From a virus (taxonomy: Duplodnaviria > Caudoviricetes), in IMG/VR virus record IMGVR_UViG_3300035208_006553, positions 1-64,000 of that record: a stretch of DNA of 64,000 nt; one strand, given 5' to 3'. The number at the start of each line of letters is the position of its first letter. Position 1 is the stretch's first letter. Both the position numbers and the translations under genes were made by a program. Shown piece after piece: positions 9,392-24,497 of the stretch. The notes beneath the pieces are model-generated. The model was not told where the DNA came from. It ran no database searches and saw only the letters and a program-made list of their open reading frames with translations.

Positions 9392-9392
9392 A

Positions 9393-9542
9393 ATGTTAAC
9401 ATTTTTATACACAAAATATTTAAATAGAGGTTTTGAGATCTTTATACCTTCTGTTATAGTTTCACTTATTGTAGCATGTATAGTTTGTACTGATGTAGCT
9501 ATATTTGCAGGTTTATTATATCTTATTGGAGTAGGTAGATGA
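9393..9542 (+). CDS. Small membrane protein (49 aa)
   Basis: MLTFLYTKYLNRGFEIFIPSVIVSLIVACIVCTDVAIFAGLLYLIGVGR; fills the gap with an ATGA overlap to the next gene. Confidence 0.55.
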   Translation: MLTFLYTKYLNRGFEIFIPSVIVSLIVACIVCTDVAIFAGLLYLIGVGR

Positions 9543-10756: not shown

Positions 10757-10760
10757 TAAC

Positions 10761-11498
10761 ATGATAAGAAATATAGGTACAGTAGTGCCGGTATTTAATA
10801 ATTTATTTTACACTAAACAGTTATTACAGTCAATAAAAAGAGTAGCTGTTACATCTAAATTAGTTAGTAAATTTAAAATAGTTGTTGTTGATAATGGGTC
10901 TACTGACGGAACAAGAGATTTCTTACAAGAAGAAAAGTATTCAATTACAAATAGTTCTGAAAATGCTACAAATATTGAATTTGAATATATTTTAAATGAA
11001 ACTAATCAAGGGTATGGTGGAGGTTGTAATAGAGGAATAGAACTATTACAAAAAGATGAAATAGAGTATGATTATTTAATTGCAAATAACGACATGATTT
11101 TTTTAGATAATGTGTTTGATGAGTTAATAAAAGCGGCTTACTCAAAAGATAATATAGGTATTGTAGGAGGAAAATTATTATTTCCAGATAATACTATTCA
11201 ACATGCCGGGGCTTTTCTTAATGTTTTTGGATGGGGTCAGCATATTGGAGGAGGAGTGCCTGAAGACCAGTTACCATCTAGTAATGCAATAGAAGAAATG
11301 GAGTATTGTACAGGAGCTCTTCTTTATATTAAACAACAAGCTGCTAAATTATTAATAGAAAAAGAAGGGCATATATTTGATGAGAGGTTTTTTATGTACT
11401 TTGAGGAGGTTGATTTAGCTTACGTATTAAGAGAATATGGATATAAAACAGTTTACGCTCCCCTTTCTAGAGCTATACATTTCGAAGGTCTAAGTTGA
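10761..11498 (+). CDS. Glycosyltransferase GT2 (C-terminal helix apparently displaced by an endonuclease insertion)
   Basis: VVPVFN, VVDNGSTDGT, NQGYGGGCN.G, NND, FDERFFMYFEEVD; ends abruptly at HFEGLS. Confidence 0.88.
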   Translation: MIRNIGTVVPVFNNLFYTKQLLQSIKRVAVTSKLVSKFKIVVVDNGSTDGTRDFLQEEKYSITNSSENATNIEFEYILNETNQGYGGGCNRGIELLQKDEIEYDYLIANNDMIFLDNVFDELIKAAYSKDNIGIVGGKLLFPDNTIQHAGAFLNVFGWGQHIGGGVPEDQLPSSNAIEEMEYCTGALLYIKQQAAKLLIEKEGHIFDERFFMYFEEVDLAYVLREYGYKTVYAPLSRAIHFEGLS

Positions 11499-11959
11499 GT
11501 TTCGAAGGACATAAACTTAGTACTATAATGAAAGGGAAAACTTTAGGTTATAAAAGATCAGAAGAAACTAAAATTAAAATAGGAAAAGCAAGTAAAGGCA
11601 GATTATTGGGGAGAAAGCAGTCTCCAGAACATATCAAAAGACGTATAGGGAGAAATAGAAATTCTTCAAAATCAGAAAGATTATGGGGTAAAAAAGTAGA
11701 AGAAACTTTTGGAGTTGTATTATTATCTTTTGTATGGTTAGAAGGTAAATGCTATGGTTATGGTAAGTATTTGTTTGAAATAGATTGTAAATATTGGCAT
11801 TCTTCTGAAAATGCTATAAAAAGAGATATTGAGAAGAATGAAATTGCTAAAAGACAGGGGTATATATTACTACGTTTTGATGTTAATACTATTTCGGAAG
11901 TTGAAAAAGCTATTAAACGTGATTTTAATAAATTAAAAGAGATATTTAGTAATGGCTAA
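11495..11959 (+). mobile_element. Free-standing homing endonuclease-like gene (NUMOD3 + Vsr/DUF559-like nuclease)
   Basis: RSEETKIKIGKASKG and KQSPEHIKRR NUMOD3-like repeats; FEIDCKYWH..RD..KN..A..GY.LLRF. True start may be ATG 11528. Confidence 0.75.
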
Positions 11960-13148
11960 AGAAGAACAGAAAGGATTATCAGACCTAAGTCAAATAAAAT
12001 TTTACTTAAAACGTGATGAAGAAAAACGACATTTAAAAGAAAGTGACAACCCTAACAAACTTCTTCTTACATCTCAAATTTACGGAGATTGGTCATTCTG
12101 CGGTGTCATGCGAAATCTTGCAAAAGGTTTAAATAGAAATGGGGTTGATGTTTCAATAGCTCCAGTTGAGTATCATTACGATAAGTTAGACATGACCGAT
12201 TGGGAAGTGAAAGAGATGATTAACAAACCAAATGATTATTGGAATAGAACAGTATTAAGATCGTGTGAAGGAGATCATATGTATTTAATGCCTCCAGGGA
12301 AACAACGTATAGCTCACACTACTGGAGAAAGTAATAGAATTAATCAAGATTGGGTATTTCAATTAAATAATGTTGATAAAGTATTAACTACTTCTAATTT
12401 TTTTAAAAAAGTAATGATTGATGGAGGAGTTAAAAAACCTGTCTTTGTATTACCTAATTCTGTGAATTTAGATTTATTTACGCCGAAAGGTCCGAAATTA
12501 CATATTGATGGATTAAGAGGTTTTAATTTTTTATCTATGTTTCATTTCGGTTCACGCAAAGCGCCTGATATATTAATTAAAGCTTTTCATAAAGCTTTTC
12601 AGAATCATGAAGATACCACTTTAACTATTCATTCACTTTCAATGACACAAAATATAGGAAGAATAGGTAAGACTATACCGCAATATATAGCAGATTTAGT
12701 AGGTGAAAGAAAAGATAATAATATTTTAATTACATCATCTTATATTAATGATGCTTTAGTACCTATGTTAATGAGAAATTACGACGTATTTGTATTACCA
12801 ACAAGAGCAGAGGGGTTTGGCCTCCCTCTTATAGAAACTGCTGCTCTCGAAATACCTTCTATAGTTACAGGATATAGTGGATGTTTAGATATAGTAGATA
12901 ATACTAATGGATGGTTAATTGATTATGATTTAGAAGATATACCTCTTCAATATTTACCTTATTTTCAAAATTATATTGGAGGTAAATGGGCTAAACCTAA
13001 AGAAGAGCATTTAATTGAATTATTTAGATATACTTACGAACATAGAGACGAAATAAAAGAAAAAGGAAAAGTAGCTAAAGAAAGAGCTCAAGCCTATGGA
13101 ATTAACAACATTGGAAAATTAGCTAGGTCAATAATTTTTGAAGATTAA
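11952..13148 (+). CDS. Glycosyltransferase GT4-like with an N-terminal GT2-tail-like segment
   Basis: RKAPDILIKAF, RAEGFGLPLIETAAL; N-terminal LSDLSQIKFYLKR resembles the terminal helix of GT2 domains. Confidence 0.88.
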   Translation: MAKEEQKGLSDLSQIKFYLKRDEEKRHLKESDNPNKLLLTSQIYGDWSFCGVMRNLAKGLNRNGVDVSIAPVEYHYDKLDMTDWEVKEMINKPNDYWNRTVLRSCEGDHMYLMPPGKQRIAHTTGESNRINQDWVFQLNNVDKVLTTSNFFKKVMIDGGVKKPVFVLPNSVNLDLFTPKGPKLHIDGLRGFNFLSMFHFGSRKAPDILIKAFHKAFQNHEDTTLTIHSLSMTQNIGRIGKTIPQYIADLVGERKDNNILITSSYINDALVPMLMRNYDVFVLPTRAEGFGLPLIETAALEIPSIVTGYSGCLDIVDNTNGWLIDYDLEDIPLQYLPYFQNYIGGKWAKPKEEHLIELFRYTYEHRDEIKEKGKVAKERAQAYGINNIGKLARSIIFED

Positions 13149-13153
13149 ATAAA

Positions 13154-13381
13154 TTGTGCGATTGTGAAATTATCTATAAAGAGTTTAGAACAGGTCTAAG
13201 CTTTAAAGATATAAGAAAAGATTTAAAGGTTGAACAAGAAAGAAAATATAGAGATTATAATGAGTATATGTTTGTAACAAGACATACTGTATTAGGAAGG
13301 TGGAGAGAGATTAAATTAAAAATGTTTTCTCAGTTTCAAAAGGATTTAGAAAAATATGGGTGTACTTGTAAAAACAGATAA
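13154..13381 (+). CDS. Hypothetical protein
   Basis: ORF coupled to neighbours. Confidence 0.55.
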   Translation: MCDCEIIYKEFRTGLSFKDIRKDLKVEQERKYRDYNEYMFVTRHTVLGRWREIKLKMFSQFQKDLEKYGCTCKNR

Positions 13382-13808
13382 CAGTAATCATGCTGAATTT
13401 TATGAATGTGATTGTCATAGTAGAGATCATTTGATTATTGTGCATAAAGATACATTTAATTATTCTACTAAGGATGGGGAATCTTTTTTTGATATAAATC
13501 TTTTTTTAGAGTTTGTAATAACTAAAAGTAGTTATGAAGCAAATAAATTTAAAGGTTTTAAAATTACAAATTTCTTTAGAAGAGGTTGGTGGATACTTAA
13601 AGAAGCAATTATAATTTTAGTAAAAGGAAGCTATAGAGTTGAAGATTGTTGGATGCCTTTAAGAATGGATGATGAAATACATCAGCTTGTTGGAGTTTCG
13701 GAAACGAGAAGGTTAGGGGAAATGTTAATTAAATTTGCTGATGATGCTCAAAAATTTTATAATAAAAACAGTATTTGCGCAACAAAAATTGATCAAATCA
13801 AGAGTTAA
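13356..13808 (+). CDS. Hypothetical protein (CxC/His N-terminal motif)
   Basis: ECDCHSRDH; operon spacing. Confidence 0.55.
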   Translation: MGVLVKTDNSNHAEFYECDCHSRDHLIIVHKDTFNYSTKDGESFFDINLFLEFVITKSSYEANKFKGFKITNFFRRGWWILKEAIIILVKGSYRVEDCWMPLRMDDEIHQLVGVSETRRLGEMLIKFADDAQKFYNKNSICATKIDQIKS

Positions 13809-13816
13809 AAGATAAC

Positions 13817-14137
13817 ATGGCTTTACAGACTTGTAAATGTATAAATTCTTCTTGTTCTGAATACAACATACAAAAAGAAATGGTTTTAAAGAGTGGTGAA
13901 ATTCCATATTGCAAAGTTTGTCAAAGTCCTTTAAGTATATTATTTCCTTGTTTTTTACATGTTAAAACTAACAACAAAGAAGTTGATGGAAGAGATAGAG
14001 GAAAAGTAACTCAAGAAAAAAATGAAGCTTTAAAGAAAAAGCATAGTGGTTATTCTTATGAAGAACAAAATTTACGAACTAAAATGACTAAAATGGCTGA
14101 TAAAATTATAAAGGATAAGGAAGCAAAAGGTCTATGA
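13817..14137 (+). CDS. Zinc-ribbon protein
   Basis: CINSSC...CKVC cysteine pairs. Confidence 0.55.
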   Translation: MALQTCKCINSSCSEYNIQKEMVLKSGEIPYCKVCQSPLSILFPCFLHVKTNNKEVDGRDRGKVTQEKNEALKKKHSGYSYEEQNLRTKMTKMADKIIKDKEAKGL

Positions 14138-14358
14138 AAAACTTAAAAAGTGATAATAAACAAATGCTAGAATACTTAAAAATGGATTATCAAGATTTTA
14201 AAATAATTAAAAAAGTTACAAAGAATATTTTAAAGAAATTACATTTGTCAGAAAGTACAGATAACACAGCAATAAAACTAAATTTATATTCTTTTTTAAT
14301 TTTAACCGATGCAGCTTTACAAACTTTGAAACCTTATAATAGAAGAAAAAATAAATGA
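14134..14358 (+). CDS. Hypothetical protein
   Basis: ATGA overlaps on both sides. Confidence 0.55.
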   Translation: MKNLKSDNKQMLEYLKMDYQDFKIIKKVTKNILKKLHLSESTDNTAIKLNLYSFLILTDAALQTLKPYNRRKNK

Positions 14359-15188
14359 AGAAACCTACTCTTGGTATTTATCAATTTATTAGAAATGGAA
14401 TAAAGTATGATTATCCTTTTCAAGAATCTCTTCGTTCAGCTCTTGAAATTGCAGATGAAGTAGTTGTGTGTGAATGTGAGAGTGATGATAAAACTTTAGA
14501 AGTTTTATTAGATTTACAAAAAGAAAGTAATAACAAACTTAAAATAGTTAGTCAACCATGGGTGTTGCATTATACTGATTTATGTATATTAGGCAATTAT
14601 GCAGCTACTTTTCTATCTACTGATTGGAAGTGGCAGCTTCAAGGGGATGAAATATTGCACGAGAGTGATTATAGTTTAATTAAAAGTAAAATAGAAGAAG
14701 CTGCTGCTAATTCACGTATAAATGCTTTAACTACTAAGTATTATCATTTTCTTGCGAATTATAATACTCTTTTTCCATTTATGTATAACGAAATTATTCG
14801 TATATATCGAAGCGGAAGTAATTGGAGACTAGTAGATGATGCTTGCAGATTAGATGGAGGCAGTGCTGACGAAGTTTTATTTACCGATATTAAAGTATAT
14901 CATTATGGAAAAGTAAAAGAAGGTCATATAGGTTTTCAAAAAGAAATAGATTTTCAAAATTTATATACTGAGATTGGTTTTCCTGATCCGAAAATGGCTA
15001 TTATGAAAGATAAGTTAGGGGAGGAGTTTTGCGATTACCTTTTTTTATTTGAGAAAGCTATTAAAGAGGGTAAAATAAGTAAATTTGAAAGAACCCACCC
15101 GAAAGTTATGAAAGATAGAATTAAAAAGTTTGAGGATGAAGGGTGGGAGCAATTTCTATCCAAAATAATAGAAGGTTTAAAGATATGA
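14355..15188 (+). CDS. Glycosyltransferase GT-A fold (GT2-like)
   Basis: IRNGIKYDYPF.ES..S..DEVVV..S.D.T, LQGDE, VYHYG. Confidence 0.8.
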   Translation: MKKPTLGIYQFIRNGIKYDYPFQESLRSALEIADEVVVCECESDDKTLEVLLDLQKESNNKLKIVSQPWVLHYTDLCILGNYAATFLSTDWKWQLQGDEILHESDYSLIKSKIEEAAANSRINALTTKYYHFLANYNTLFPFMYNEIIRIYRSGSNWRLVDDACRLDGGSADEVLFTDIKVYHYGKVKEGHIGFQKEIDFQNLYTEIGFPDPKMAIMKDKLGEEFCDYLFLFEKAIKEGKISKFERTHPKVMKDRIKKFEDEGWEQFLSKIIEGLKI

Positions 15189-15231
15189 AATATAATGCTC
15201 AAGATATTAAAATACTAAATTTTGTAATTTT

Positions 15232-15531
15232 ATGATAAAAGAAGACGATTTTACTATTCCAAAACATACTCTTTTTATCTTTCATCAAATGTGTAGAGAA
15301 ATAAGAGTGTCCTGTAAGAAAATTGATTTTAACAAAACAGAATGGTACCTGAAACACTCTTGGACTAATTATAAACAAAATAAGTTTATTAATTGGCTAA
15401 CTAATTATTTATTTAACAATAAAGAAGCGAGACAGGAGATTGTAGCTTCTCCTTCTCGTAAATCTAAAAAGTTTTTAAGAAAAGTTGCTACAGAATTTAT
15501 CTTAGTATACGGGTGGAAGATTAAAAAATGA
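15232..15531 (+). CDS. Hypothetical protein
   Basis: ORF track; coupled to the next gene. Confidence 0.55.
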   Translation: MIKEDDFTIPKHTLFIFHQMCREIRVSCKKIDFNKTEWYLKHSWTNYKQNKFINWLTNYLFNNKEARQEIVASPSRKSKKFLRKVATEFILVYGWKIKK

Positions 15532-15830
15532 GAATTACAGTTTCTGATGATTTACTTGACCACTTTTTTAAAGAACCGCAAGAAGGAGATTCTGAATTTT
15601 GGGCCTTTATTTGGCCTGTAAGAGCTAAAGTAGGAGATCCAATATATTTTTATAATAACAAAAAATTAATAGCAAGTGCTGTAGTAAATCGAGTAGAGAA
15701 ACCTGGAGAAAGTAGTTGTTTAAGTACTGGGCAATTTAAGAATAAATGGAAAGTTCATTGGTTAAATTCTTCATTCAAAGATGAGAGAAAGAGGTTGAGT
15801 TTTTCTGATTTACAGAAGAGATATAAATGA
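15528..15830 (+). CDS. PUA-like (ASCH/EVE-like) domain protein
   Basis: W..KVGDPIYFY...LIASAVV pattern. Confidence 0.4.
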   Translation: MRITVSDDLLDHFFKEPQEGDSEFWAFIWPVRAKVGDPIYFYNNKKLIASAVVNRVEKPGESSCLSTGQFKNKWKVHWLNSSFKDERKRLSFSDLQKRYK

Positions 15831-16048
15831 AGATTACAAAAAAGAAAACGATTAAATTGTTATATGAGAAATATAAAGATACAAATCAATCTTTTGAAGA
15901 TTTTACGCGAGCGAACTGTAACTACTTTTTTGAAGATGTTTATGAATACCTAAAAACAGGATTAATTTGTCTTTCTAATAGTTTTCAATATCAAGCAATC
16001 GTTCAGAAAGCAGGATGTTACATTAAGAGATCAAATGAAATGGACTAA
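15827..16048 (+). CDS. Hypothetical protein
   Basis: ORF with coupled overlaps. Confidence 0.5.
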   Translation: MKITKKKTIKLLYEKYKDTNQSFEDFTRANCNYFFEDVYEYLKTGLICLSNSFQYQAIVQKAGCYIKRSNEMD

Positions 16049-16487
16049 AGGAGATATCTGGATTTATCACAAGCTTGGAAAAACTATTGTTATTCCAACT
16101 AACGCTGGATGGAAAAGCGACGGAAGTAATGTAATGGGAAGAGGATTAGCTAAACAAGCTTCTGAGAAATTTAATTGGCTTTCTCAAGATTACGGGCAAT
16201 ATTGTAAAAATGAAAATCCTTATTGTTATTATTCAAATGTTAATTTAATTTTAGTTCCTTCAAAAGCACTTAATAAAGAGAAACCGTTTTTAAGTTGGCA
16301 ACATGAAGCGGATAAAGATACAATTACTTCCTCTTTAAATTGGTTACAAGATAATTCAATTAGTTTTCCTGATAAGATTTATGTACCTATTCTAGGTTCA
16401 GGAAATGGAAAGATGCAAAAAGGTTTAGTAAAAGAATTAATGGATAGGATTTTAATCAGTGGAAAATTTATAGGAGTAGAAAATTGA
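16035..16487 (+). CDS. Macro-domain (ADP-ribose binding/processing) protein
   Basis: GDIW, IPTN, VMGRGLAKQ, PILGSGNG. Confidence 0.8.
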   Translation: MKWTKGDIWIYHKLGKTIVIPTNAGWKSDGSNVMGRGLAKQASEKFNWLSQDYGQYCKNENPYCYYSNVNLILVPSKALNKEKPFLSWQHEADKDTITSSLNWLQDNSISFPDKIYVPILGSGNGKMQKGLVKELMDRILISGKFIGVEN

Positions 16488-16633
16488 AATTTGTATGGTT
16501 TCAATCTTTAAAAGGTTCTAAATCTTTAAAAGAAACATATATTAATGCTTTTCACGATCCTTTTTATCTTTTGTTATGTATAGGACCTATTTTACTGTTC
16601 TTTTCATTTAAGTATTTAGGAGTGATAAAATGA
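16484..16633 (+). CDS. Small membrane protein (49 aa)
   Basis: TTG start, hydrophobic FYLLLCIGPILLFFSF, 4-nt overlaps on both sides. Confidence 0.45.
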   Translation: MKFVWFQSLKGSKSLKETYINAFHDPFYLLLCIGPILLFFSFKYLGVIK

Positions 16634-17001
16634 ATTTTAAAGTTTGGAAGATAAGTACAGAATCGTTTTTAGATGAAGTTATTTCTGAATACAATTGTAT
16701 ATGTAATTCTCATTTGGAAAAAGATTTATTATTTTTTGAAGAAATAAGTATAGAAGGAAAGAAATTTTATAATGATTCAGATATACTTAAATTTAAGTAT
16801 TTAGAAGAGTTAAATAAAGAAATAGATTTAATAGGGAGTTTTCATTTTAATAGGGATGATTTAAGTTATGAAATAGATATTTACAATAATGAAAGATATA
16901 TTTGTCTTAATTATGTAGGAAACGGAATATTTCGTGATTTTGAAAAAATAGGAACAATACAAGAAAATCCAGAATTGACAAGAGGAGAAACTTTTGAATA
17001 G
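16630..17001 (+). CDS. YopX-like protein
   Basis: FKVW N-terminus, GKKFY..DI, EKIGTIQENPEL C-terminus. Confidence 0.7.
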   Translation: MNFKVWKISTESFLDEVISEYNCICNSHLEKDLLFFEEISIEGKKFYNDSDILKFKYLEELNKEIDLIGSFHFNRDDLSYEIDIYNNERYICLNYVGNGIFRDFEKIGTIQENPELTRGETFE

Positions 17002-17830
17002 TATTTCAGTTGTGTTACCGCTATATTCAAACAGCCAAAAATATGTAAGTAGAATGTCTATTATTCGAAGAACTTTAATATCTCTTAAAAATCAAATAGA
17101 TATAAGTTTTGAGGTTATAGCTGTTGATAATGGAAGTTTTGATGATACTTATACTTTATTTAGGCAATATTTTCCTAAATCTTTATATTTATCTTTTCCG
17201 GAATCGCGTCAAAGAGCAAAAGCTAGAAATTTAGGAGTAAGTTTAGCTCGTAATGATAATATTTTATTTTTAGACAATGATTGTTTTACTTATCCAACAT
17301 GCATTAAGAATTACAAAAAACTGATTAATTTATTTCCAGATACTGTAATTCAAGGTATGTTTTTGCAAAGTCAAGGACTTTACCTTTCAGGGGATGAATA
17401 TATAAAAGTAATAGATAACAAAGAAACTATTGATTATGCAAAATACGAAAGTGAAATTCCATTAGAACGATCGTACAGGCAAGAAGATTTAAATTCTCAT
17501 ACAGTAGAATATTACAATTCAGTAGAGTTAAGTTACAAAGATGCATATTGGGATCCTGCATTACATTTAGGCAATTTACTCTACCCTCGTCATTTAATAA
17601 ACAAATTAAAAGGAATAGATGAAGATTTTATTGGGTGGGGTCATGAAGATTCGATGTTAGGTTACGTTACACACTATTCTAAAATTCCTGTAAAGCTAGC
17701 TCTTAACACAATTGTTATTCACCAATTACACAGAACAGGAAATGATTTATCTCATACTGAAGACTGTGCTTCTGAATTAATTAATAGAGAATTATTGTTT
17801 AAAAAAGTTGCAGCATTACGGCAAACGTAG
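16994..17830 (+). CDS. Glycosyltransferase GT2
   Basis: ISVVLP, VDNGSFD, ARNLG, FLDND, GIDEDFIGWGHED, HQLH. Confidence 0.88.
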   Translation: MNSISVVLPLYSNSQKYVSRMSIIRRTLISLKNQIDISFEVIAVDNGSFDDTYTLFRQYFPKSLYLSFPESRQRAKARNLGVSLARNDNILFLDNDCFTYPTCIKNYKKLINLFPDTVIQGMFLQSQGLYLSGDEYIKVIDNKETIDYAKYESEIPLERSYRQEDLNSHTVEYYNSVELSYKDAYWDPALHLGNLLYPRHLINKLKGIDEDFIGWGHEDSMLGYVTHYSKIPVKLALNTIVIHQLHRTGNDLSHTEDCASELINRELLFKKVAALRQT

Positions 17831-17839
17831 GAAATATTA

Positions 17840-18532
17840 ATGATTAAAATTTCCGTATTACACCCCTCTCGACAAAGACCTATTTTAGCAAAAACTGCAT
17901 TTTTAGAATGGTTAAACACTTGTGAAAAACCCTTAGAAGTAGAATATTTACTTGGATTAGATAGTGATGATCCAGTTTTAGATGAATATAAAAATTTATT
18001 TACTCAAGAAGATATAGATAAGCAAGTAGGAAGATTTGTAATGTTTATAAGTAACACTACAAACATACCTGCAGTTGTTAATGAATTAGGTAAAATAGTT
18101 TCTTCGACATCTGAATTATTAGTAGTAATAGCTGATGATATGGGTAGTGTAAAGAAATGGGATATAATTTTATTAGATTCTTTAAAAGATGTAGATAATT
18201 TTAAAGAGCCTAAATACATAGGTGTATGTGACGGTATTCACCCTTACGGAGAGGTTTTATTATATACTATAATAAACAAGGCATTTTATAATAAATTTAA
18301 TTATGTCTTATACCCCGAATACACAGGTTGTTTTGTAGATCTAGATATGTTCGAAGTAGTAAAGAGAATGAATTGCCTTATTGATTTACCTTTTGTAGTT
18401 TTTCAACATCATCATTACAGCATAGGTCAAGCTTCTTTTGATACAGTGTATGCTAGACACAATAATCCAGTCACAAATGTTTACAATGAACAAGTATATT
18501 TAAGACGAAAATTACAAAATTTTGGATTTTAA
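17840..18532 (+). CDS. Glycosyltransferase GT-A fold
   Basis: ISVLHPSR.RP, DSDD, IADD (DxD-like), FQHHH. Confidence 0.7.
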   Translation: MIKISVLHPSRQRPILAKTAFLEWLNTCEKPLEVEYLLGLDSDDPVLDEYKNLFTQEDIDKQVGRFVMFISNTTNIPAVVNELGKIVSSTSELLVVIADDMGSVKKWDIILLDSLKDVDNFKEPKYIGVCDGIHPYGEVLLYTIINKAFYNKFNYVLYPEYTGCFVDLDMFEVVKRMNCLIDLPFVVFQHHHYSIGQASFDTVYARHNNPVTNVYNEQVYLRRKLQNFGF

Positions 18533-19562
18533 TATGAATATATTAATAACAGGTATTAGCGGTTTTGTTGGTTCTAATTTTACAGATTACATATTAAAAA
18601 ATGTTCCAGAAGCTAACATATTTGCTATTAGAAGGTGGAAAAGCTCGGATGAAAATATAAAACACCTATACACTAATGAAAAAGTTAGATTTATTGAAGC
18701 CGATTTATTAGATAGAGGAAGTTTAGAAAATATTATTAGAATAGCAATTCCTAGTTATGTTTTTCATTTTGCAGCTCAGAGTTACCCTATGAGCAGTTTT
18801 AATACCCCTATTCATACACTTAATACGAATGTTATAGGTACTGTTAACTTATTAGATGAACTAAGAATTGCTAGAGATAGAAAAATATGTGATCCTATTA
18901 TTGTAAGCGTTTCATCGAGCGAGGTTTACGGAAATCCTTTACCTGAAGAAATTCCAATTAAAGAAAGTAATCCAATTAGAGCAGCAAATCCATATAGTAT
19001 ATCAAAAGTAGCACATGATCTAATGTCACAGTTTTATTATCAAGCTTATGGGCTAAAAGTAATTATAACAAGAATGTTTTCTCATGAAGGTTCTCGTAGA
19101 GGTAAATTATTTGCTCTTTCTAGTTTTGCTTACCAGATAGTACAAGCAGAAAAATTATATCGAGAAAGGTTAGTTAAGAATTGTAATGAGTGTTTTGATT
19201 TAAAATATAAAGTTAAAGTAGGTAACCTTAATTCAATCCGCACTTACAGTCATGTTGATGATGCAGTTAATGCTTATTGGTTGGCTGCTACAAAAGGAAA
19301 GATAGGAAATGTGTATAATATAGGAGGTACAGATACTTGCACAGTAGGGGATGCATTGAATAAGTTACTTTTATATAGCTTAGTTCCAATAAACGAATTT
19401 AATATTGTAGTAGATCCGAATAAAATTAGATTAACAGATATTACATTACAGGTACCTTGTGCAGATAAATTTAAGCAAGATACAGGGTGGGAGCCAAAAA
19501 AACATTTGGATGATATTTGTAATGACTTGCTTCAGTTTTGGCGAAAGAATATTAAGGAATGA
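18522..19562 (+). CDS. gmd: GDP-mannose 4,6-dehydratase-like extended SDR (GMD/RMD family)
   Basis: GISGFVG, HFAAQS, SSSEVYG, PYSISK (YxxxK), HEG.RRG, VGNL.S.R. Confidence 0.75.
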   Translation: MDFNMNILITGISGFVGSNFTDYILKNVPEANIFAIRRWKSSDENIKHLYTNEKVRFIEADLLDRGSLENIIRIAIPSYVFHFAAQSYPMSSFNTPIHTLNTNVIGTVNLLDELRIARDRKICDPIIVSVSSSEVYGNPLPEEIPIKESNPIRAANPYSISKVAHDLMSQFYYQAYGLKVIITRMFSHEGSRRGKLFALSSFAYQIVQAEKLYRERLVKNCNECFDLKYKVKVGNLNSIRTYSHVDDAVNAYWLAATKGKIGNVYNIGGTDTCTVGDALNKLLLYSLVPINEFNIVVDPNKIRLTDITLQVPCADKFKQDTGWEPKKHLDDICNDLLQFWRKNIKE

Positions 19563-19604
19563 AGATTGTATAAATAAAATTTTAGGTGTAATTAGGAGTA
19601 ACTT

Positions 19605-20573
19605 ATGAAAATTTTAGTATGCGGATGTACAGGTTTTATGGGTAGAAATATTGCAGAATACTTTGTAAAAAAGGGACATGAAGTATATGGAGTTGCAAAT
19701 TTATTATCAAGTAATAAGATTTTTCCTGAAAGTGTTCCAGTTACAAGAGCTGACTTAACTTCTAAAACAGGTGTTAATTATGTTTTTGAAGGTTCTAAAT
19801 ACGATATTGTAATACAAGCTGCTGCAGTCACATCAGGTTCAAAAGATATCACAGAAAGACCCTATATACATGTTACAGACAATGCAATAATGAATAGTTT
19901 AATTTTAAGAGCTTGTTATGATTATAATGTAAAACATTTTGTATTTTTGAGTTGCGGGGTTATGTATCAGCCAGGAGAAGAACCTAGAAAGGAAGAAGAT
20001 TTTAACGAACATGATTCTATTCACCCATCTTATTTTGGAGTAGGTTGGACGAAGGTCTATATAGAGAAGATGTGCGAATTTTATTCGTTATTAGGTAAAA
20101 CTAAGCATACCGTTATCAGACATTCAAATACCTATGGCCCTTATGACAAATATGATTTAGAACATAGTCATATGTTTGGAGCTACTGTTAGAAAAGTTAT
20201 GGATGCAAAAGACGGCGATACTATTAATATATGGGGTACTGGAGAGGAAACGGAAAGAGATTTAATTTATGTAACTGATGTTATTGATTTAATCAACTTA
20301 ATTATATACAAACAGAGCGAGAGGTTTGATCTAATAAATGCTGGGTATGAATGTGCTTGTAGTGTTAAATCAATTGTTGATATGGTTATTGAAAAATCAG
20401 GAAAAAAATTAAACAGGTTTTATGATATTTCAAAACCAGTAATATCTACTTCTTTAACTTTAGATTGTAGTAAAGCAAAGGAAAAGTATAAGTGGAGAGC
20501 AAGTACTCATATTCAAACAGGTATTGAAAAAACATTAGAATGGTACAAGGAATATTACAATGTTAATACTTAG
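19605..20573 (+). CDS. NDP-sugar epimerase/reductase (GDP-fucose synthase-like)
   Basis: GCTGFMG, YGPYD, IWGTG..RDLIYV.D; GWTK where YxxxK is expected. Confidence 0.8.
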   Translation: MKILVCGCTGFMGRNIAEYFVKKGHEVYGVANLLSSNKIFPESVPVTRADLTSKTGVNYVFEGSKYDIVIQAAAVTSGSKDITERPYIHVTDNAIMNSLILRACYDYNVKHFVFLSCGVMYQPGEEPRKEEDFNEHDSIHPSYFGVGWTKVYIEKMCEFYSLLGKTKHTVIRHSNTYGPYDKYDLEHSHMFGATVRKVMDAKDGDTINIWGTGEETERDLIYVTDVIDLINLIIYKQSERFDLINAGYECACSVKSIVDMVIEKSGKKLNRFYDISKPVISTSLTLDCSKAKEKYKWRASTHIQTGIEKTLEWYKEYYNVNT

Positions 20574-21204
20574 AGGGAAGCAAAGAGAAATTACTCTTAC
20601 AGAGCAGGACCTTATTGATTTTGAAAGTGAAGTAGTTAATCAATTTGAACAAGGTAAAATTAGAGGAGCTGTTCATTTGTCTAATAATAATGAAAAGCAA
20701 TTAATTGATATTTTTCAATATATTAATTCTGACGACTGGGTTTTTTCCACCTGGCGAAATCATTATCATGCACTATTACATGGAGTTTCGAAAGAAGAAT
20801 TAATGAGAGAAATACTTAACTCTCATAGTATATCTTTTCAAAGTCCTAAACATCATTTTTATACATCTGCAATTGTAAATGGTATTTTGCCAATTGCAGT
20901 AGGAACAGCAATGGGCTTAAAATGGAATAACAGTGAGAGAGTAGTATTTTGTTTTGTAGGAGATATGACTTCAGAAAGCGGAGTATTTTACGAATGTTTA
21001 AAGTATTCTATTAGAAATAATTTACCTATTCATTTTGTAATTGAAGATAATGGGTTATCTACTAATACACCTACACAAGAAGCTTGGGGTACTGAAGGAA
21101 ATTTAGTTATCTGGGATAAAAATTATGAAAAATATATAACTAAATATTCTTATGTTAGAGGCAAGTATCCGCATGTCGGAGCGGGTAAGTTTATACATTT
21201 TTAA
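20560..21204 (+). CDS. TPP-dependent enzyme, E1-alpha-like subunit (short)
   Basis: GKIRGAVHLS, STWRNHYHAL, SAIV.G..PIA.G, VGD...EDN TPP/Mg motif. Confidence 0.85.
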   Translation: MLILRGKQREITLTEQDLIDFESEVVNQFEQGKIRGAVHLSNNNEKQLIDIFQYINSDDWVFSTWRNHYHALLHGVSKEELMREILNSHSISFQSPKHHFYTSAIVNGILPIAVGTAMGLKWNNSERVVFCFVGDMTSESGVFYECLKYSIRNNLPIHFVIEDNGLSTNTPTQEAWGTEGNLVIWDKNYEKYITKYSYVRGKYPHVGAGKFIHF

Positions 21205-21216
21205 AGGAAAAATAGT

Positions 21217-21780
21217 ATGAGTAACTATTTTGATGAATTAACAAGAACGATGGCAGAGTTATCAAAACACGATAAAGTAAAATTTATAGGTCAATCTGTT
21301 GTATGGGATGGACATGCTTTGTTTAAAACTTTAAAAGACGTACCTATAGAAAAAAGAGTGGAGTTACCTGTATCGGAAGATTTTCAGTTAGGTTTAAGTA
21401 CAGGTCTCGCTTTAGAAGGATGGATTCCAATTAGTATTTATCCTAGAATGGATTTTTTAATATTAGCTGCAAACCAGTTGACGAACCATTTAGTTAATAT
21501 TGCAACTGTATCTAAAGGAGGTTATAAGCCTCGTGTAATAATAAGAACATCTATGGGAGCTACAGGACCTTTATATTCTGGTTTACAACATTGTCAAGAT
21601 CATTCAGCGGTATTTAGATTATTATGTAGAAATGGAGTAGAAGTTGCTGAGTTGAGAAGAAAAGATCAAATATTTTCTTCTTATATGAATGCTCTTACAA
21701 GAGAAGATTGTAAACCTACATTGTTAATTGAATATGGCGATTTATATAATTTACAAGAGGAAGTAAATGTCCTGGACTGA
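21217..21780 (+). CDS. TPP-dependent enzyme, E1-beta-like pyrimidine-binding subunit (short)
   Basis: ELPVSE..GL..GLAL.G..P, RMDF...A.NQ, GLQH.QD, PTLLIE. Confidence 0.82.
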   Translation: MSNYFDELTRTMAELSKHDKVKFIGQSVVWDGHALFKTLKDVPIEKRVELPVSEDFQLGLSTGLALEGWIPISIYPRMDFLILAANQLTNHLVNIATVSKGGYKPRVIIRTSMGATGPLYSGLQHCQDHSAVFRLLCRNGVEVAELRRKDQIFSSYMNALTREDCKPTLLIEYGDLYNLQEEVNVLD

Positions 21781-22489
21781 TAAAAAAGCTATACAAACTA
21801 TTTTAAAATTAAGAGATGAATTTAAAGTTACTGATTTTATAGAGACGGGAACTTTTAAAGGTACAAATGCTAAATTATATTCTCAATATTTTCAAAATGT
21901 TTTTTCTTGTGAAATTAATGAGAATTATTACAAAGAGGCTAAAGAAAAGTGTAAGGATTATGAAAATATAAAGATTTATAATATTGATAGCCCTTCTTTT
22001 TTAACTTTATTAAAATACAAAGGTTACGGTGAACGTTTATTAACATCATCTACATCAATATGGTATCTTGATGCACATTTTTATGATTCTACTCTTTCAA
22101 AAGAAAAAAGATTTGTAATTTTAGATGAGTTAAAAGCCCTTTCTGATTTTGTGAATTGTATAATAGTTATACATGATTTTGATTGTGGTTGTGAAAATTT
22201 AGGCCATATAGTATATGATGGAATACCTCTTAATTTTGATTTACTTGAAGAAAGACTTGCAAAAGTAAATCCGAATTTTAAATATTATACTAATAGTAAA
22301 GAATTTTGTGATATAGTTAAGTTAGAAGATGTACTAGAAAATAAAATACAAGGAATTGAATCAACAGAAGACGTATTAGATAATTTAAAATATGTATGGA
22401 GCAGCCCTGAAAAAACTTACAGAGGTATTTTATATTGCCTTCCGAGAGGCTTAGATCTTTCAAAGTATGATTTAAAAGAGTTAATATGA
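21767..22489 (+). CDS. Class I SAM-dependent methyltransferase-like protein
   Basis: FIETGTFKG, SCEIN, IDS, YLDAH, IHDF. Confidence 0.65.
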   Translation: MSWTDKKAIQTILKLRDEFKVTDFIETGTFKGTNAKLYSQYFQNVFSCEINENYYKEAKEKCKDYENIKIYNIDSPSFLTLLKYKGYGERLLTSSTSIWYLDAHFYDSTLSKEKRFVILDELKALSDFVNCIIVIHDFDCGCENLGHIVYDGIPLNFDLLEERLAKVNPNFKYYTNSKEFCDIVKLEDVLENKIQGIESTEDVLDNLKYVWSSPEKTYRGILYCLPRGLDLSKYDLKELI

Positions 22490-23088
22490 AAAGTGTATTG
22501 GTATTAGGGAACAGTAGAGGTATTGGCTTAGCAATTTCAGAAAGTTTAAGAAATGAAGGATTAATAGTTTTAAATATTAGTAGATCTTCTGGTTATGATT
22601 TAATGACTAAAGAAGGAAGAAATAAGTTATTTAATGATGTAGAAGAAACAGATATTTTAATAGGTAATGTTGGAGGAATGGGTACTTGCTCTATTGATGA
22701 TTATGAAGAGGTGATGAGAAAGAATTATTTTATTAATGTAGAAATACTATTGCATTATTTACCTTATATGGTAAGGAAAAAATGGGGAAGGGTGGTATTT
22801 ATAAGTTCTATTTTTGGAAAAGAAAAAGGAGATAATCCTGCATTTACTGCTGCGAAAGCTGCTCAAATTGCATTTATAAAAAGTATAGCAGGAAAGTATA
22901 AAGGAATTACATTTAATGTAATTTGTCCTGGTTATATTGATGTAGGTAAAGATTTTAAGAGTGACTCTAAAGTAGTTGGAATACCTGAAGATGTAGCTGT
23001 TTTAACTTCTTTTTTATGTAATGAAAAAACTTCCCATATTAATGGAGTTGCTATTGCGTGCGATGGAGGATCATCTTATTCGTTTTAA
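22486..23088 (+). CDS. Classical short-chain dehydrogenase/reductase
   Basis: GNSRGIG, ISSI, FTAAK (F replaces the catalytic Y), NVICPG, DGG. Confidence 0.8.
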   Translation: MKSVLVLGNSRGIGLAISESLRNEGLIVLNISRSSGYDLMTKEGRNKLFNDVEETDILIGNVGGMGTCSIDDYEEVMRKNYFINVEILLHYLPYMVRKKWGRVVFISSIFGKEKGDNPAFTAAKAAQIAFIKSIAGKYKGITFNVICPGYIDVGKDFKSDSKVVGIPEDVAVLTSFLCNEKTSHINGVAIACDGGSSYSF

Positions 23089-23125
23089 ATTTAAATTAAG
23101 TAATGAAAATATGGAGTTATTATAA

Positions 23126-23983
23126 ATGTTTAAAGGTAAAAAAATAGCGGTTCTCGGCGGAGAAGGAATGATAGGTAAGGAACTAGTAAAACAATTACAG
23201 TTAATAGGCGGTAATGTTTTTTCTTACGATATTAAGAACGGGTATGATTTAAGTTGTTATTCTGCATGTTACCAGATTTTTAAAGATACAGATTTTGTAT
23301 TTAGTCTAGTAGGAGTAAAAGGAAGTCCTAGGATGACTAATGCTAAACCTCTAGATTTTATGTTTCCTATGTTAAGATGCGACACAAACATTATTAAAGC
23401 TGCTATAGATTGTAAAGTTGAAAAGTTTTTATATACTTCTTCTATAGCTGTGTTAAATCCTAAAACGGATAGATTTCCTGCTTGGGCTAAAATGACAGGA
23501 GAATTGCTTTTAGAAGCTGCAAGAATACAATACCCAGATTTTAAATTTGTGATTACAAGACCTGCTAATGTATACGGTAAATATGATAATTTTGATAATA
23601 TGAATGCGATGGTAGTAACTAGTTTAGTAAGAAAAGCTATTCTTTGTAACGCGATAGAAGTACGGGGCGATGGGTCAGAGATGCGAGAGTTTATCAGTGC
23701 AAAAGATGTAGCTAAAGGAATGATACTAACAATGTTAAAGTCCCCTGAAAAACCTGTTAATTTAGGATCGGGAGAGACTCATTCTATAAAAGAACTTGCA
23801 GAGATATTAAGTAAAATATCTAATAAACCTATTGTTTATAAACTTCTTGAAAAAGAAGGTGATAGAGAAAGAGTAGTATTTAAAGATGAAAATCGAGCAG
23901 ATATAGGGTTTAAAGCAGAAGATAATTTTAAAGAAAGTATTATAGAAGTATATAATTATGCTAGAAACAAATGTGTAGAGTAG
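23126..23983 (+). CDS. NDP-sugar epimerase/reductase (extended SDR)
   Basis: GGEGMIG, YTSS, AWAK, RPANVYG, GDGS..REFI...DVA. Confidence 0.8.
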   Translation: MFKGKKIAVLGGEGMIGKELVKQLQLIGGNVFSYDIKNGYDLSCYSACYQIFKDTDFVFSLVGVKGSPRMTNAKPLDFMFPMLRCDTNIIKAAIDCKVEKFLYTSSIAVLNPKTDRFPAWAKMTGELLLEAARIQYPDFKFVITRPANVYGKYDNFDNMNAMVVTSLVRKAILCNAIEVRGDGSEMREFISAKDVAKGMILTMLKSPEKPVNLGSGETHSIKELAEILSKISNKPIVYKLLEKEGDRERVVFKDENRADIGFKAEDNFKESIIEVYNYARNKCVE

Positions 23984-23990
23984 GTGATAT

Positions 23991-24497
23991 ATGTTAGTAA
24001 AAGACACGCAATTAGTAGGAGTAAAACTTATTGAAAGTATTCCTGTTTTTGAAGATTTTAGAGGAAGATATAAAGAAACTTTTAATAAAGCAGAATATAA
24101 AAAAATTATTGATATAGAATTTGTACAAGATGATATTTCTGTATCTCGTAGAAATGTTTTACGAGGGATTCATGGAGACAAAGGTACCTGGAAGTTGATT
24201 TCTTGTTTGAAAGGAGCTTTTTATTTAGTAGTGGTTAATAACGATGAAAAAAGTGCACAATATAAATTTTGGGAAAGTTTTACATTATCTGATAGTAATA
24301 ATTTACAAGTTTTGATTCCTCCCAAGTTTGGAAACGGTCATTTAGTGTTAACTGATGAAACGATTTTTCATTATAAGCAATCTACGTATTACGGAGAGTT
24401 TAAACAGTTTACTATTCTATGGAATGATCCTGAGATTAATATAGCATGGCCTTCTCTATGTGGTAATAATCCAATTCTATCTTTAAGAGATAGTTAA
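23991..24497 (+). CDS. rmlC: dTDP-4-dehydrorhamnose 3,5-epimerase family (cupin)
   Basis: FEDFRG, FVQDDIS.S..VLRGIH, LIPP.FGNGH, WNDP.INI.WP. Confidence 0.88.
   Translation: MLVKDTQLVGVKLIESIPVFEDFRGRYKETFNKAEYKKIIDIEFVQDDISVSRRNVLRGIHGDKGTWKLISCLKGAFYLVVVNNDEKSAQYKFWESFTLSDSNNLQVLIPPKFGNGHLVLTDETIFHYKQSTYYGEFKQFTILWNDPEINIAWPSLCGNNPILSLRDS

What the first reader, a model, noticed from the sequence alone, without database searches (positions are those of the whole stretch)
18522..24497. Candidate branched-chain sugar pathway with a minimal TPP enzyme pair
Seen: E1-alpha-like (214 aa) and E1-beta-like (187 aa, no C-terminal domain) sit among sugar SDRs, with no E2/E3 in the window. Three of the four SDRs lack the canonical YxxxK tyrosine (VGWTK, FTAAK, PAWAK). 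Established: the TPP enzyme YerE adds a pyruvate-derived C2 unit to an NDP-4-keto sugar and a reductase finishes yersiniose. Inference: the phage makes a C-branched, possibly methylated deoxysugar; this is not a pyruvate dehydrogenase.
Basis: partly seen in the sequence, partly recalled or inferred. Interest (0 to 1): 0.7.

Follow-up and report, generated by a model that had tools for sequence, protein, structure and literature searches.

The report
Minimal thiamine enzyme in phage sugar operon
An uncultured landfill/groundwater phage carries a stripped-down two-subunit thiamine enzyme inside a GDP-sugar operon; it most likely adds a carbon branch to a keto-sugar and is not a pyruvate dehydrogenase, and it belongs to a large, unstudied family common in phages and SAR11-type bacteria.

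Summary
Window 18522-24497 is one co-oriented, overlapping gene string:
- a GDP-heptose/mannose-type 4,6-dehydratase;
- a fucose-synthase-like SDR (VGWTK);
- a 214-aa E1-alpha-like and a 187-aa E1-beta-like ThDP pair;
- a methyltransferase-like gene;
- a short classical SDR (FTAAK);
- a second fucose-synthase-like SDR (PAWAK);
- an RmlC-like epimerase.

No E2 or lipoyl gene occurs in the 108-kb record, and no E2 homologue occurs in 4 Mb of related loci.

The pair is not decayed. It belongs to a conserved family of about 200 + 180 aa subunits, or a 400-aa fusion. Both forms keep the cofactor motifs. The family sits almost always beside RmlC-like and Tyr-less SDR genes, in over 540 viral contigs and in SAR11, candidate-phyla (CPR) bacteria, Chloroflexi and archaea.

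All three tyrosine losses are conserved family traits.

The best reading (about 0.5) is a ThDP carboligase that adds a pyruvate-derived C2 unit to a GDP-4-keto-6-deoxy sugar. The closest analogue is not YerE but the E1-type sugar-branching enzymes (AviB1/B2, Pau11/12, KbDH). Those are full length. I could not obtain their sequences for a tree, and no activity was shown here.

This scan found the same family before on other DNA, and two earlier follow-ups reached the same reading.

The parts
18522..19562 (+). Extended SDR, GDP-sugar 4,6-dehydratase type (SSSEVYG, YSISK). It is the likely source of the 4-keto-6-deoxy acceptor.
   Evidence: Pfam GDP_Man_Dehyd 1.5e-62. Best solved relative is 7us5, GDP-D-glycero-D-manno-heptose 4,6-dehydratase, E 5.6e-56 over the full length; next is 2pk3, Rmd.
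19605..20573 (+). GDP-fucose-synthase-like extended SDR, type A. The motif is Y-F-G-V-G-W-T-K-V-Y, with Val at the canonical Tyr position. The Rossmann motif is kept.
   Evidence: The motif Y..[VY]G[WNG].[KR].[YF] occurs in 77 of 102 homologues next to the ThDP pair.
20560..21204 (+). Minimal E1-alpha-like subunit (diphosphate-binding PP domain). It carries GDM-x26-DN (ThDP/Mg motif), the HL..NE and WRNHYH motifs, and an invariant C-terminal YPH.G.G.W..F tail.
   Evidence: phrog_34187 positions 5-200 of 405.
21217..21780 (+). Minimal E1-beta-like subunit (pyrimidine-binding domain only). It has the invariant Glu of PV.E (cofactor activation) and the His of G.QH. There is no Transketolase_C domain.
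   Evidence: phrog_34187 positions 238-401 of 405. It accompanies alpha in 148 of 155 loci.
21767..22489 (+). Class I SAM-methyltransferase-like protein, an accessory gene.
   Evidence: Weak RrnaAD/Erm hits. ESM Atlas feature score 0.96 and TM 0.73 to class I methyltransferase clusters. Found in only 3 of 155 related loci.
22486..23088 (+). Shortened classical SDR (200 aa) with F-T-A-A-K, Tyr replaced by Phe. It is a candidate side-chain ketoreductase or a non-redox partner.
   Evidence: It is 36% identical to a 262-aa SDR family found beside the pair, about half of whose members share W-F-[NT]-x-x-K.
23126..23983 (+). GDP-fucose-synthase-like extended SDR, type B. The motif is F-P-A-W-A-K, with Pro at the Tyr position. 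It lacks a 15-aa insertion that its relatives have.
   Evidence: The motif [FY][AP]GW[AT]K occurs in 89 of 112 homologues. 72 of 79 viral loci fetched through this protein carry E1-alpha within 10 kb.
23991..24497 (+). RmlC-fold cupin, a 3- or 3,5-epimerase of a GDP-4-keto sugar.
   Evidence: Pfam dTDP_sugar_isom 5.6e-42. The best solved relatives are C. jejuni GDP-4-keto-heptose epimerases 7ang, 7an4, 8dco and 7m14.
8102..18532 (+). Upstream part of the same island: glycosyltransferases at 8102, 9539, 10761, 11952, 16994 and 17840, plus small unknown ORFs. They are the presumed users of the modified sugar.
   Evidence: A baseplate wedge gene lies at 1587-2984.

Best explanation
The eight genes form one operon that remodels a host-supplied GDP-sugar (GDP-D-glycero-D-manno-heptose or GDP-mannose).

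Proposed steps:
1. The dehydratase makes the GDP-6-deoxy-4-keto sugar.
2. The cupin epimerises it at C3, or at C3 and C5.
3. The minimal alpha/beta ThDP enzyme decarboxylates pyruvate and adds the resulting hydroxyethyl-ThDP carbanion to the sugar's keto carbon. This gives a C-acetyl branched sugar with a tertiary alcohol.
4. One or more of the atypical SDRs then reduces the exocyclic ketone to a 1-hydroxyethyl branch.
5. The methyltransferase-like protein may add a methyl group.
6. The upstream glycosyltransferases build the sugar into a glycan, on the virion or on the infected cell.

Shown here: gene identities, the domain losses, retention of the cofactor motifs, and the tight, reciprocal synteny of the pair with GDP-sugar enzymes.

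Inferred: the donor (pyruvate), the acceptor, the position of the branch, the roles of the Tyr-less SDRs, and the target of the glycan.
For: Cofactor chemistry is intact:
- GDM-x26-DN, the HL..NE and RNH motifs in alpha, and the invariant Glu and His in beta are conserved across 137 alpha and 130 beta sequences.

The parts that tie E1 to a dehydrogenase complex are missing:
- The beta C-terminal domain is absent.
- No E2 or lipoyl gene occurs in the record.
- No E2 homologue occurs in 4.07 Mb of 234 related loci.

Context:
- Beta accompanies alpha in 148 of 155 loci.
- The recurrent order is RmlC > E1a > E1b > SDR-B > SDR-A > dehydratase.
- In viral loci with 8 kb on both sides, RmlC is present in 54 of 55, SDR-B in 52 of 55 and SDR-A in 50 of 55.
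- Fetching by SDR-B returns E1a in 72 of 79 loci.

The dehydratase and epimerase are closest to enzymes that make and epimerise GDP-6-deoxy-4-keto-heptose, so a ketone acceptor is produced in the operon.

No canonical Ser-Tyr-Lys 4-ketoreductase is present in the operon to consume that ketone.

Precedent: E1-alpha/beta-type ThDP enzymes add an acetyl branch from pyruvate to keto-sugars. This rests on knock-outs and feeding for aldgamycin, avilamycin and paulomycin, and on in-vitro ketone carboligation for KbDH-alpha/beta (PMC12247030 section 2.2; PMC4425429; PMC4753412).

Other reductase families sit beside the pair in other loci: aldo-keto reductase as for Pau7, Zn-ADH and classical SDR.
Against: - No biochemical datum exists for any member of this minimal family.
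- The characterised branching enzymes are full length (Pau11 325 aa, Pau12 345 aa). I could not obtain their sequences, so I could not test whether the minimal family is their relative or an independent offshoot of E1.
- The Tyr-less SDRs may still reduce the 4-keto group, which would leave no acceptor.
- In cellular loci the link to extended SDRs is looser (27 of 36).
- Close relatives of this phage also carry a YerE-like enzyme and a split transketolase, either of which could be the real branching enzyme there.
- The phage record is only 61% complete and encodes no nucleotidyltransferase, so the substrate is assumed to come from the host.
Confidence: 0.5

Rival explanations
1. The chemistry is the same but the donor differs. 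The pair works like a transketolase or a split-transketolase brancher. It transfers a glycolaldehyde (hydroxyacetyl) unit, or a longer acyl unit from another 2-oxo acid, to the GDP-keto-sugar.
For: The model of the fused form superposes best on whole transketolases (TM 0.61-0.67) and on DXP synthase. Split transketolases are proposed branchers in miharamycin and amipurimycin (PMC12247030 section 2.3). Relatives' loci hold a PanB-like 2-oxo-acid-forming enzyme.
Against: Sequence profiles match E1_dh and PDH E1-alpha, not Transketolase_N. The loci that need a transketolase carry a separate split one. E1-type branchers studied so far use only pyruvate (PMC12247030).
Confidence: 0.15
2. The pair acts upstream of nucleotide activation, on sugar phosphates. 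For example, it could make or trim a heptulose or deoxy-ketose precursor, DXP-synthase-like. It would not act on the GDP-keto-sugar.
For: Many cellular loci and the cyanophage loci add SIS isomerase, PfkB or GHMP kinases and nucleotidyltransferases. One homologue is fused to an APH-type kinase. There is fold similarity to DXP synthase.
Against: This phage record has no isomerase, kinase or nucleotidyltransferase, yet it keeps the pair. The most constant neighbours are enzymes that act on nucleotide-4-keto sugars.
Confidence: 0.12
3. The pair is an auxiliary metabolic gene for central carbon metabolism: a true pyruvate or acetoin dehydrogenase E1 that uses the host's E2 and E3.
For: Automatic names in public sources call homologues 'pyruvate dehydrogenase E1 alpha'. 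The best family-model hits are PDH E1-alpha and E1-beta.
Against: The E2-docking domain is absent, scores are a quarter of the cut-offs, and no E2 occurs in any of 234 loci. The pair falls in a clade with SH-aLRT support of 100, apart from PdhA and AcoA, and always has sugar-gene neighbours.
Confidence: 0.03
4. The truncated E1 genes and the Tyr-less SDRs are decaying remnants without function.
For: Shortened proteins and lost catalytic residues are what decay looks like in a single genome.
Against: The lengths (median 209 and 181 aa) and the motif changes are conserved at 45-80% identity across phages, bacteria and archaea. Reading frames are intact and translationally coupled.
Confidence: 0.02

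Closest known systems
E1-alpha/beta-type (alphaKADH2) sugar acetyl-branching enzymes: AviB1/AviB2 (avilamycin), Pau11/Pau12 (paulomycin), the aldgamycin pair, KbDH-alpha/beta (kibdelomycin)
   Same: A two-subunit E1-like ThDP enzyme without E2 or E3, encoded inside a deoxysugar pathway next to a 4,6-dehydratase. A reductase, aminotransferase or methyltransferase follows in the pathway (PMC12247030, PMC4425429, PMC4753412).
   Different: Those subunits are full length (325 and 345 aa). They come from actinomycete antibiotic clusters and use dTDP-type sugars or act after glycosyl transfer. Here alpha is 214 aa, beta is 187 aa with no C-terminal domain, the context is GDP-heptose/hexose, and the hosts are phages and uncultured bacteria and archaea. 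Kinship with them was not tested.
YerE / ErwE (yersiniose, erwiniose)
   Same: The proposed reaction is the same: ThDP-dependent addition of an acyl anion equivalent to a nucleotide-4-keto sugar, followed by NAD(P)H reduction (PMC9306805).
   Different: YerE is a single-chain enzyme of the decarboxylase superfamily (TPP_enzyme_N/M/C) with the opposite domain order. A protein of that kind is a separate gene in some relatives' loci and is absent from this window.
Campylobacter jejuni GDP-6-deoxy-heptose pathway (DmhA dehydratase, DdahB/MlghB/Cj1430 epimerases, DdahC/MlghC/Cj1428 C4-reductases)
   Same: The dehydratase and the cupin of the window are closest to these solved enzymes. The two long SDRs are of the same GDP-fucose-synthase-like kind.
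   Different: That pathway ends with a canonical Ser-Tyr-Lys C4 reduction and has no ThDP enzyme. Here both reductase-like proteins lack the Tyr and a ThDP pair is added.
phrog_34187; 'transketolase central region-containing protein' of cyanophages S-SM2 (SSM2_198) and P-TIM68 (gp190)
   Same: These are the same family in a fused 400-aa form, 37-39% identical, inside heptose clusters of cultured phages.
   Different: They are fused, and their neighbours are a Zn-alcohol dehydrogenase and a PfkB-like kinase rather than RmlC and the two Tyr-less SDRs. Their function is unknown.
Split transketolase (e.g. PDB 6yak) and pyruvate dehydrogenase / acetoin dehydrogenase E1
   Same: The fold has the same diphosphate-binding (PP) plus pyrimidine-binding (Pyr) domains and the same cofactor motifs.
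   Different: There is no third (TKC) domain, and alpha is shortened by about 110 residues. The pair lies on a separate long branch in the tree.

Membership tests
2-oxoacid dehydrogenase E1 (alpha2beta2 type: PDH, acetoin DH) | ThDP/Mg motif in alpha (GDG-x24-27-NN) and cofactor-activating Glu in beta | tested here: met
   GDM-x26-DN is invariant. The Glu of PV.E is invariant.
2-oxoacid dehydrogenase E1 (alpha2beta2 type: PDH, acetoin DH) | Beta subunit with a C-terminal Transketolase_C domain that docks E2 | tested here: not met
   The beta subunit ends at the position matching residue 178 of a 326-aa AcoB. There is no Pfam Transketolase_C hit.
2-oxoacid dehydrogenase E1 (alpha2beta2 type: PDH, acetoin DH) | Score above the curated family cut-off | tested here: not met
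   TIGR03182 scores 97.8 bits against 393.85. NF006667 scores 33 against 321.
2-oxoacid dehydrogenase E1 (alpha2beta2 type: PDH, acetoin DH) | E2 (lipoyl acyltransferase) partner encoded nearby | tested here: not met
   PF00198 and PF00364 are absent from the record. There is no E2 homologue in 234 related loci.
2-oxoacid dehydrogenase E1 (alpha2beta2 type: PDH, acetoin DH) | Groups with PdhA/AcoA in a tree | tested here: not met
   The minimal and fused forms make one clade (SH-aLRT 100) on a long branch apart from 5 outgroups. This is a quick tree with few outgroups.
alphaKADH2 sugar-branching enzymes (AviB1/B2 type) | E1-like alpha/beta pair without E2/E3 inside a keto-sugar pathway | tested here: met
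alphaKADH2 sugar-branching enzymes (AviB1/B2 type) | Full-length E1 subunits (about 325 and 345 aa) | tested here: not met
   214 and 187 aa in the window; family medians are 209 and 181 aa, against Pau11 and Pau12 in PMC4425429.
alphaKADH2 sugar-branching enzymes (AviB1/B2 type) | Shared ancestry with AviB1/Pau11/KbDH to the exclusion of PDH | not tested
   No tool gave me those sequences. The Streptomyces plasmid hits examined were not in sugar clusters.
alphaKADH2 sugar-branching enzymes (AviB1/B2 type) | Pyruvate-dependent acetyl transfer to a ketone | not testable with these tools
   Needs an enzyme assay.
YerE-like ThDP lyases | Single chain with TPP_enzyme_N, M and C domains | tested here: not met
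   The pair matches E1_dh and Transket_pyr-type domains in the PP-then-Pyr order.
Canonical extended/classical SDR reductases | Ser-Tyr-Lys triad with Y-x-x-x-K | tested here: not met
   Not met for 19605 (V), 22486 (F) and 23126 (P). Met for 18522.

The most novel reading that the evidence does not exclude
The minimal ThDP pair and three independently Tyr-less SDR lineages form a co-evolved enzyme set. It would carry out nucleotide-sugar chemistry not yet described: a C-C bond formed on GDP-6-deoxy-4-keto-heptose, giving a branched nonose or octose, followed by reduction with a relocated catalytic residue. The product would be widespread on the surfaces of SAR11-type bacteria, candidate-phyla (CPR) bacteria and archaea, or on the virions of their phages. 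In relatives it would be combined with two further ThDP enzymes to build multiply branched sugars.
Probability: 0.3. Interest if true: 0.8.

Novelty: new variant of a known kind. Interest (0 to 1): 0.62.

Why it matters
ThDP-dependent branching of sugars is known from a handful of antibiotic and O-antigen pathways. This family would extend it in three ways:
- to a much smaller enzyme (about 400 residues per active unit);
- to GDP-heptose/hexose substrates;
- to some of the most abundant marine bacteria, to candidate-phyla (CPR) bacteria and DPANN archaea, and to hundreds of phages.

Public annotation calls these genes 'pyruvate dehydrogenase E1', which would wrongly count them as energy-metabolism auxiliary genes in viromes.

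A minimal ketone-accepting carboligase is also of interest for biocatalysis of tertiary alcohols.

The conserved loss of the catalytic Tyr in three SDR lineages of one pathway is an open mechanistic question that can be tested directly.

Tried and rejected
Genomic context came from the search for related loci instead.
- Megablast of the operon against GenBank phages found nothing.
- I looked for actinomycete sugar-branching pairs in the plasmid collection to use in a tree. The two Streptomyces hits inspected were a fused enzyme in a catabolic context and an unannotated stretch. They were used only as outgroup or dropped.
- The careful maximum-likelihood search did not finish in time. The tree cited is the quick one, with only five outgroups and long branches.
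- A global MAFFT alignment suggested that alpha simply ends early. Inspection showed instead that its invariant tail (Y.Y...YPH) probably matches the TYRFxGH catalytic-His motif of canonical E1-alpha, after an internal deletion. I therefore do not claim that this His is lost.
- The promoter/terminator scan found no more sites than the shuffled controls.
- No RNA holder was listed among the sequencing runs.
- Literature searches for the family in phage, cyanophage or heptose contexts gave nothing specific.
- A recollection that the Coxiella O-antigen region holds E1-like genes could not be checked and is not used.
- Pfam found nothing in the small ORFs at 13356-17001.

Full report
**What is there.** The window is the first 64 kb of a 108-kb IMG/VR virus record, estimated 61% complete. 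It has about 30% G+C, and all genes are on one strand. Near-identical DNA occurs in landfill and groundwater metagenomes.

Upstream lie a baseplate wedge gene (1587-2984) and two 690-aa proteins with no family match. Six glycosyltransferase genes follow (8102, 9539, 10761, 11952, 16994, 17840).

The stretch in question, 18522-24497, holds eight ORFs that abut or overlap by 4-14 bases. No terminator-like site lies inside the stretch. A sigma factor gene and a class II ribonucleotide reductase gene follow.

**The eight genes.**
- *18522-19562.* An extended SDR with an intact YSISK and a GMD-like SSSEVYG motif. Its best solved relative is the C. jejuni GDP-D-glycero-D-manno-heptose 4,6-dehydratase (7us5, E 5.6e-56, full length), followed by the GDP-sugar reductase Rmd.
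- *23991-24497.* An RmlC-fold cupin. Its best solved relatives are the C. jejuni GDP-4-keto-heptose 3- and 3,5-epimerases.
- *19605-20573 and 23126-23983.* Both are GDP-fucose-synthase-like SDRs.
- *22486-23088.* A FabG-like classical SDR of only 200 aa.
- *21767-22489.* Only weak profile hits, but the ESM Atlas places it among class I SAM methyltransferases (feature score 0.96; TM 0.73). I treat this as a lead.
- *20560-21204 and 21217-21780.* The E1-alpha-like and E1-beta-like proteins.

The record encodes no nucleotidyltransferase, sugar kinase, isomerase, aminotransferase, transketolase or YerE-like enzyme. The starting GDP-sugar would therefore have to come from the host or from the missing part of the genome.

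**The ThDP pair.**
- Alpha aligns with residues 16-198 of a 324-aa AcoA. Beta aligns with residues 6-178 of a 326-aa AcoB. Beta therefore lacks the whole C-terminal domain.
- Alpha keeps GDM-x26-DN, the HL..NE motif and the RNH motif. Beta keeps the Glu of PV.E and the His of G.QH. All are invariant or nearly so in the family.
- Alpha's tail, Y.Y...YPH.G.G.W..F, is invariant. By position and motif (EDN at 162, YPH at 203-205, against ENN at 167 and TYRFKGH at 231-237 in AcoA) it probably corresponds to the catalytic-His motif of E1-alpha after an internal deletion of about 25-30 residues. This is an inference, and I do not claim that His is lost.
- No E2 or lipoyl domain is in the record. No E2 homologue is found in 4.07 Mb of related loci.

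**The family.**
- A search of 5.8 billion proteins gave 3566 hits. The best 120 are all 200-240 aa and 50-80% identical (one is a 136-aa fragment).
- An exhaustive HMMER search of 1.84 billion representatives gave 93 clusters at E <= 1e-30 and 760 at E <= 1e-10.
- Relatives occur in 75 loci of species-representative genomes. These include many Pelagibacteraceae, Patescibacteria, Chloroflexota, Woese- and Pacearchaeota, Omnitrophota and, in a fused form, Prochlorococcus.
- Relatives also occur in at least 540 viral contigs.
- A fused 400-aa form (phrog_34187) is present in the cultured cyanophages S-SM2 and P-TIM68, inside heptose clusters.
- An AlphaFold model of a fused member (pLDDT 78, pTM 0.85) superposes on transketolase (TM 0.61-0.67) and DXP synthase without a third domain.
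- In a quick maximum-likelihood tree, the minimal and fused forms make one clade (SH-aLRT 100) apart from PdhA, AcoA, RenH and a fused Streptomyces enzyme. The caveats are few outgroups, long branches and no actinomycete sugar-branching sequences.

**Context.**
- tblastn of the window's proteins against 155 loci finds beta in 148. The recurrent order is RmlC > E1a > E1b > SDR-B > SDR-A > dehydratase.
- Among the 55 viral loci with at least 8 kb on both sides, beta is in 55, RmlC in 54, SDR-B in 52 and SDR-A in 50. Among the 36 cellular loci with the same flanks, 27 have an extended SDR.
- The reverse test also holds. Of 79 viral loci fetched through SDR-B, 72 carry E1a within 10 kb, and most of the other seven are cut short.
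- Other frequent neighbours are a DegT aminotransferase, an RmlD-like SDR, PfkB-like and GHMP kinases, a SIS isomerase, a nucleotidyltransferase, an aldo-keto reductase, a Zn-alcohol dehydrogenase and a split transketolase.
- The phage's closest relatives (L077, L078 and the Omnitrophota-binned L002, which shares the downstream sigma-factor gene and is probably a phage contig) and several SAR11 loci go further. They add a YerE/AHAS-type enzyme, a split transketolase, a PanB-like enzyme and an aldo-keto reductase, giving up to three ThDP enzymes per locus.

**The SDRs.**
- *Type A.* The motif Y..[VY]G[WNG].[KR].[YF] occurs in 77 of 102 homologues. The canonical Tyr position holds Val or Tyr. 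A conserved Tyr lies three residues upstream of the canonical position.
- *Type B.* The motif [FY][AP]GW[AT]K occurs in 89 of 112 homologues. Ala or Pro sits at the Tyr position, and an invariant Asp lies 7 residues before the Lys.
- *Classical SDR.* It belongs to a 262-aa family, about half of whose members beside the pair have W-F-[NT]-x-x-K.
- All three keep the nucleotide-binding glycines, the Ser and the Lys. These are specialised proteins, not broken ones.
- Apart from the dehydratase, the operon therefore contains no canonical Ser-Tyr-Lys reductase.

**Mechanism.** The most economical reading has four steps:
1. The dehydratase and the cupin produce an epimerised GDP-6-deoxy-4-keto sugar.
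2. The ThDP pair consumes the ketone by acyloin-type addition of a pyruvate-derived C2 unit.
3. One or more atypical SDRs act on the new exocyclic ketone, which sits one bond away from where a C4-reductase expects its carbonyl. This could explain a relocated catalytic residue, though that is speculation.
4. The glycosyltransferases use the product.

The precedent is the E1-type (alphaKADH2) class. It is supported genetically for the aldgamycin, avilamycin and paulomycin sugars, and in vitro for KbDH-alpha/beta with pyruvate and ketones including sugar analogues (PMC12247030 section 2.2; PMC4425429; PMC4753412).

Against this reading:
- There is no biochemistry for the minimal family.
- Its kinship to the actinomycete enzymes is untested.
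- The Tyr-less SDRs might still reduce C4.
- Other ThDP enzymes in relatives' loci might be the real branching enzymes there.

I put this reading at about 0.5. The rivals are:
- a different donor (0.15);
- action on sugar phosphates (0.12);
- a true dehydrogenase E1 (0.03);
- gene decay (0.02).

**Novelty.**
- I found no paper on this family in the held library.
- Pelagimyophage and cyanomyophage glycosylation islands next to tail genes are known in general terms (PMC7029224).
- The scan itself has met the family before on other DNA. Two earlier follow-ups reached the same reading. These are unchecked AI notes and I do not count them as evidence.
- I class this as a new variant of a known kind of enzyme, and this window as one more member of a large uncharacterised family.

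Noticed in passing
L002, L078, L058, L132 (relatives' loci); SAR11 loci L031, L038, L047: Up to three different ThDP enzymes sit in one sugar locus: the minimal E1 pair, a 554-aa YerE/AHAS-type enzyme and a split transketolase. With them are a PanB-like ketopantoate hydroxymethyltransferase and aldo-keto reductases. This may point to long-branched or multiply branched sugars.
   Followed up: partly
P0147, P0167 (homologues of the alpha subunit): Some alpha subunits are interrupted by an intein splicing domain (P0147, just before the GDM cofactor motif) or preceded by a LAGLIDADG endonuclease domain (P0167, N-terminal to the E1 part).
   Followed up: no
P0231: A 552-aa protein fuses an APH-type phosphotransferase domain to the minimal alpha subunit. 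This is a possible link to sugar phosphorylation.
   Followed up: no
L146, L082 and 21 loci with the order RmlC>E1a>SDR-B>SDR-A>E1b: In many viral loci the alpha and beta genes are not adjacent. They are separated by the two Tyr-less SDR genes or by further genes.
   Followed up: partly
L059 (contig labelled Bifidobacterium breve MAG): Its fused 400-aa enzyme is 74% identical to the Prochlorococcus one. The contig may be mis-binned or viral.
   Followed up: no
window 22486-23088 and 23126-23983: Both SDRs are shortened versions of their families. The classical SDR is 200 aa against about 262, and type B lacks a 15-aa insertion (AEVF.EDDVW.TFPS) present in its relatives.
   Followed up: partly
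L024, L010, L034 and six other loci: A B12-binding radical SAM protein (503 aa) recurs beside the pair in 9 loci. It is a candidate C-methyltransferase.
   Followed up: no
window 16035-16487: A 150-aa ORF matches a phage 'phosphatase' family (phrog_335, E 2.8e-10) but no Pfam model. Homologues follow the sigma-factor gene in two related loci.
   Followed up: no
window 18522: The TTG start overlaps the upstream glycosyltransferase by 11 bases. An ATG at 18534 (MNILITG...) fits the alignment to solved dehydratases better.
   Followed up: no
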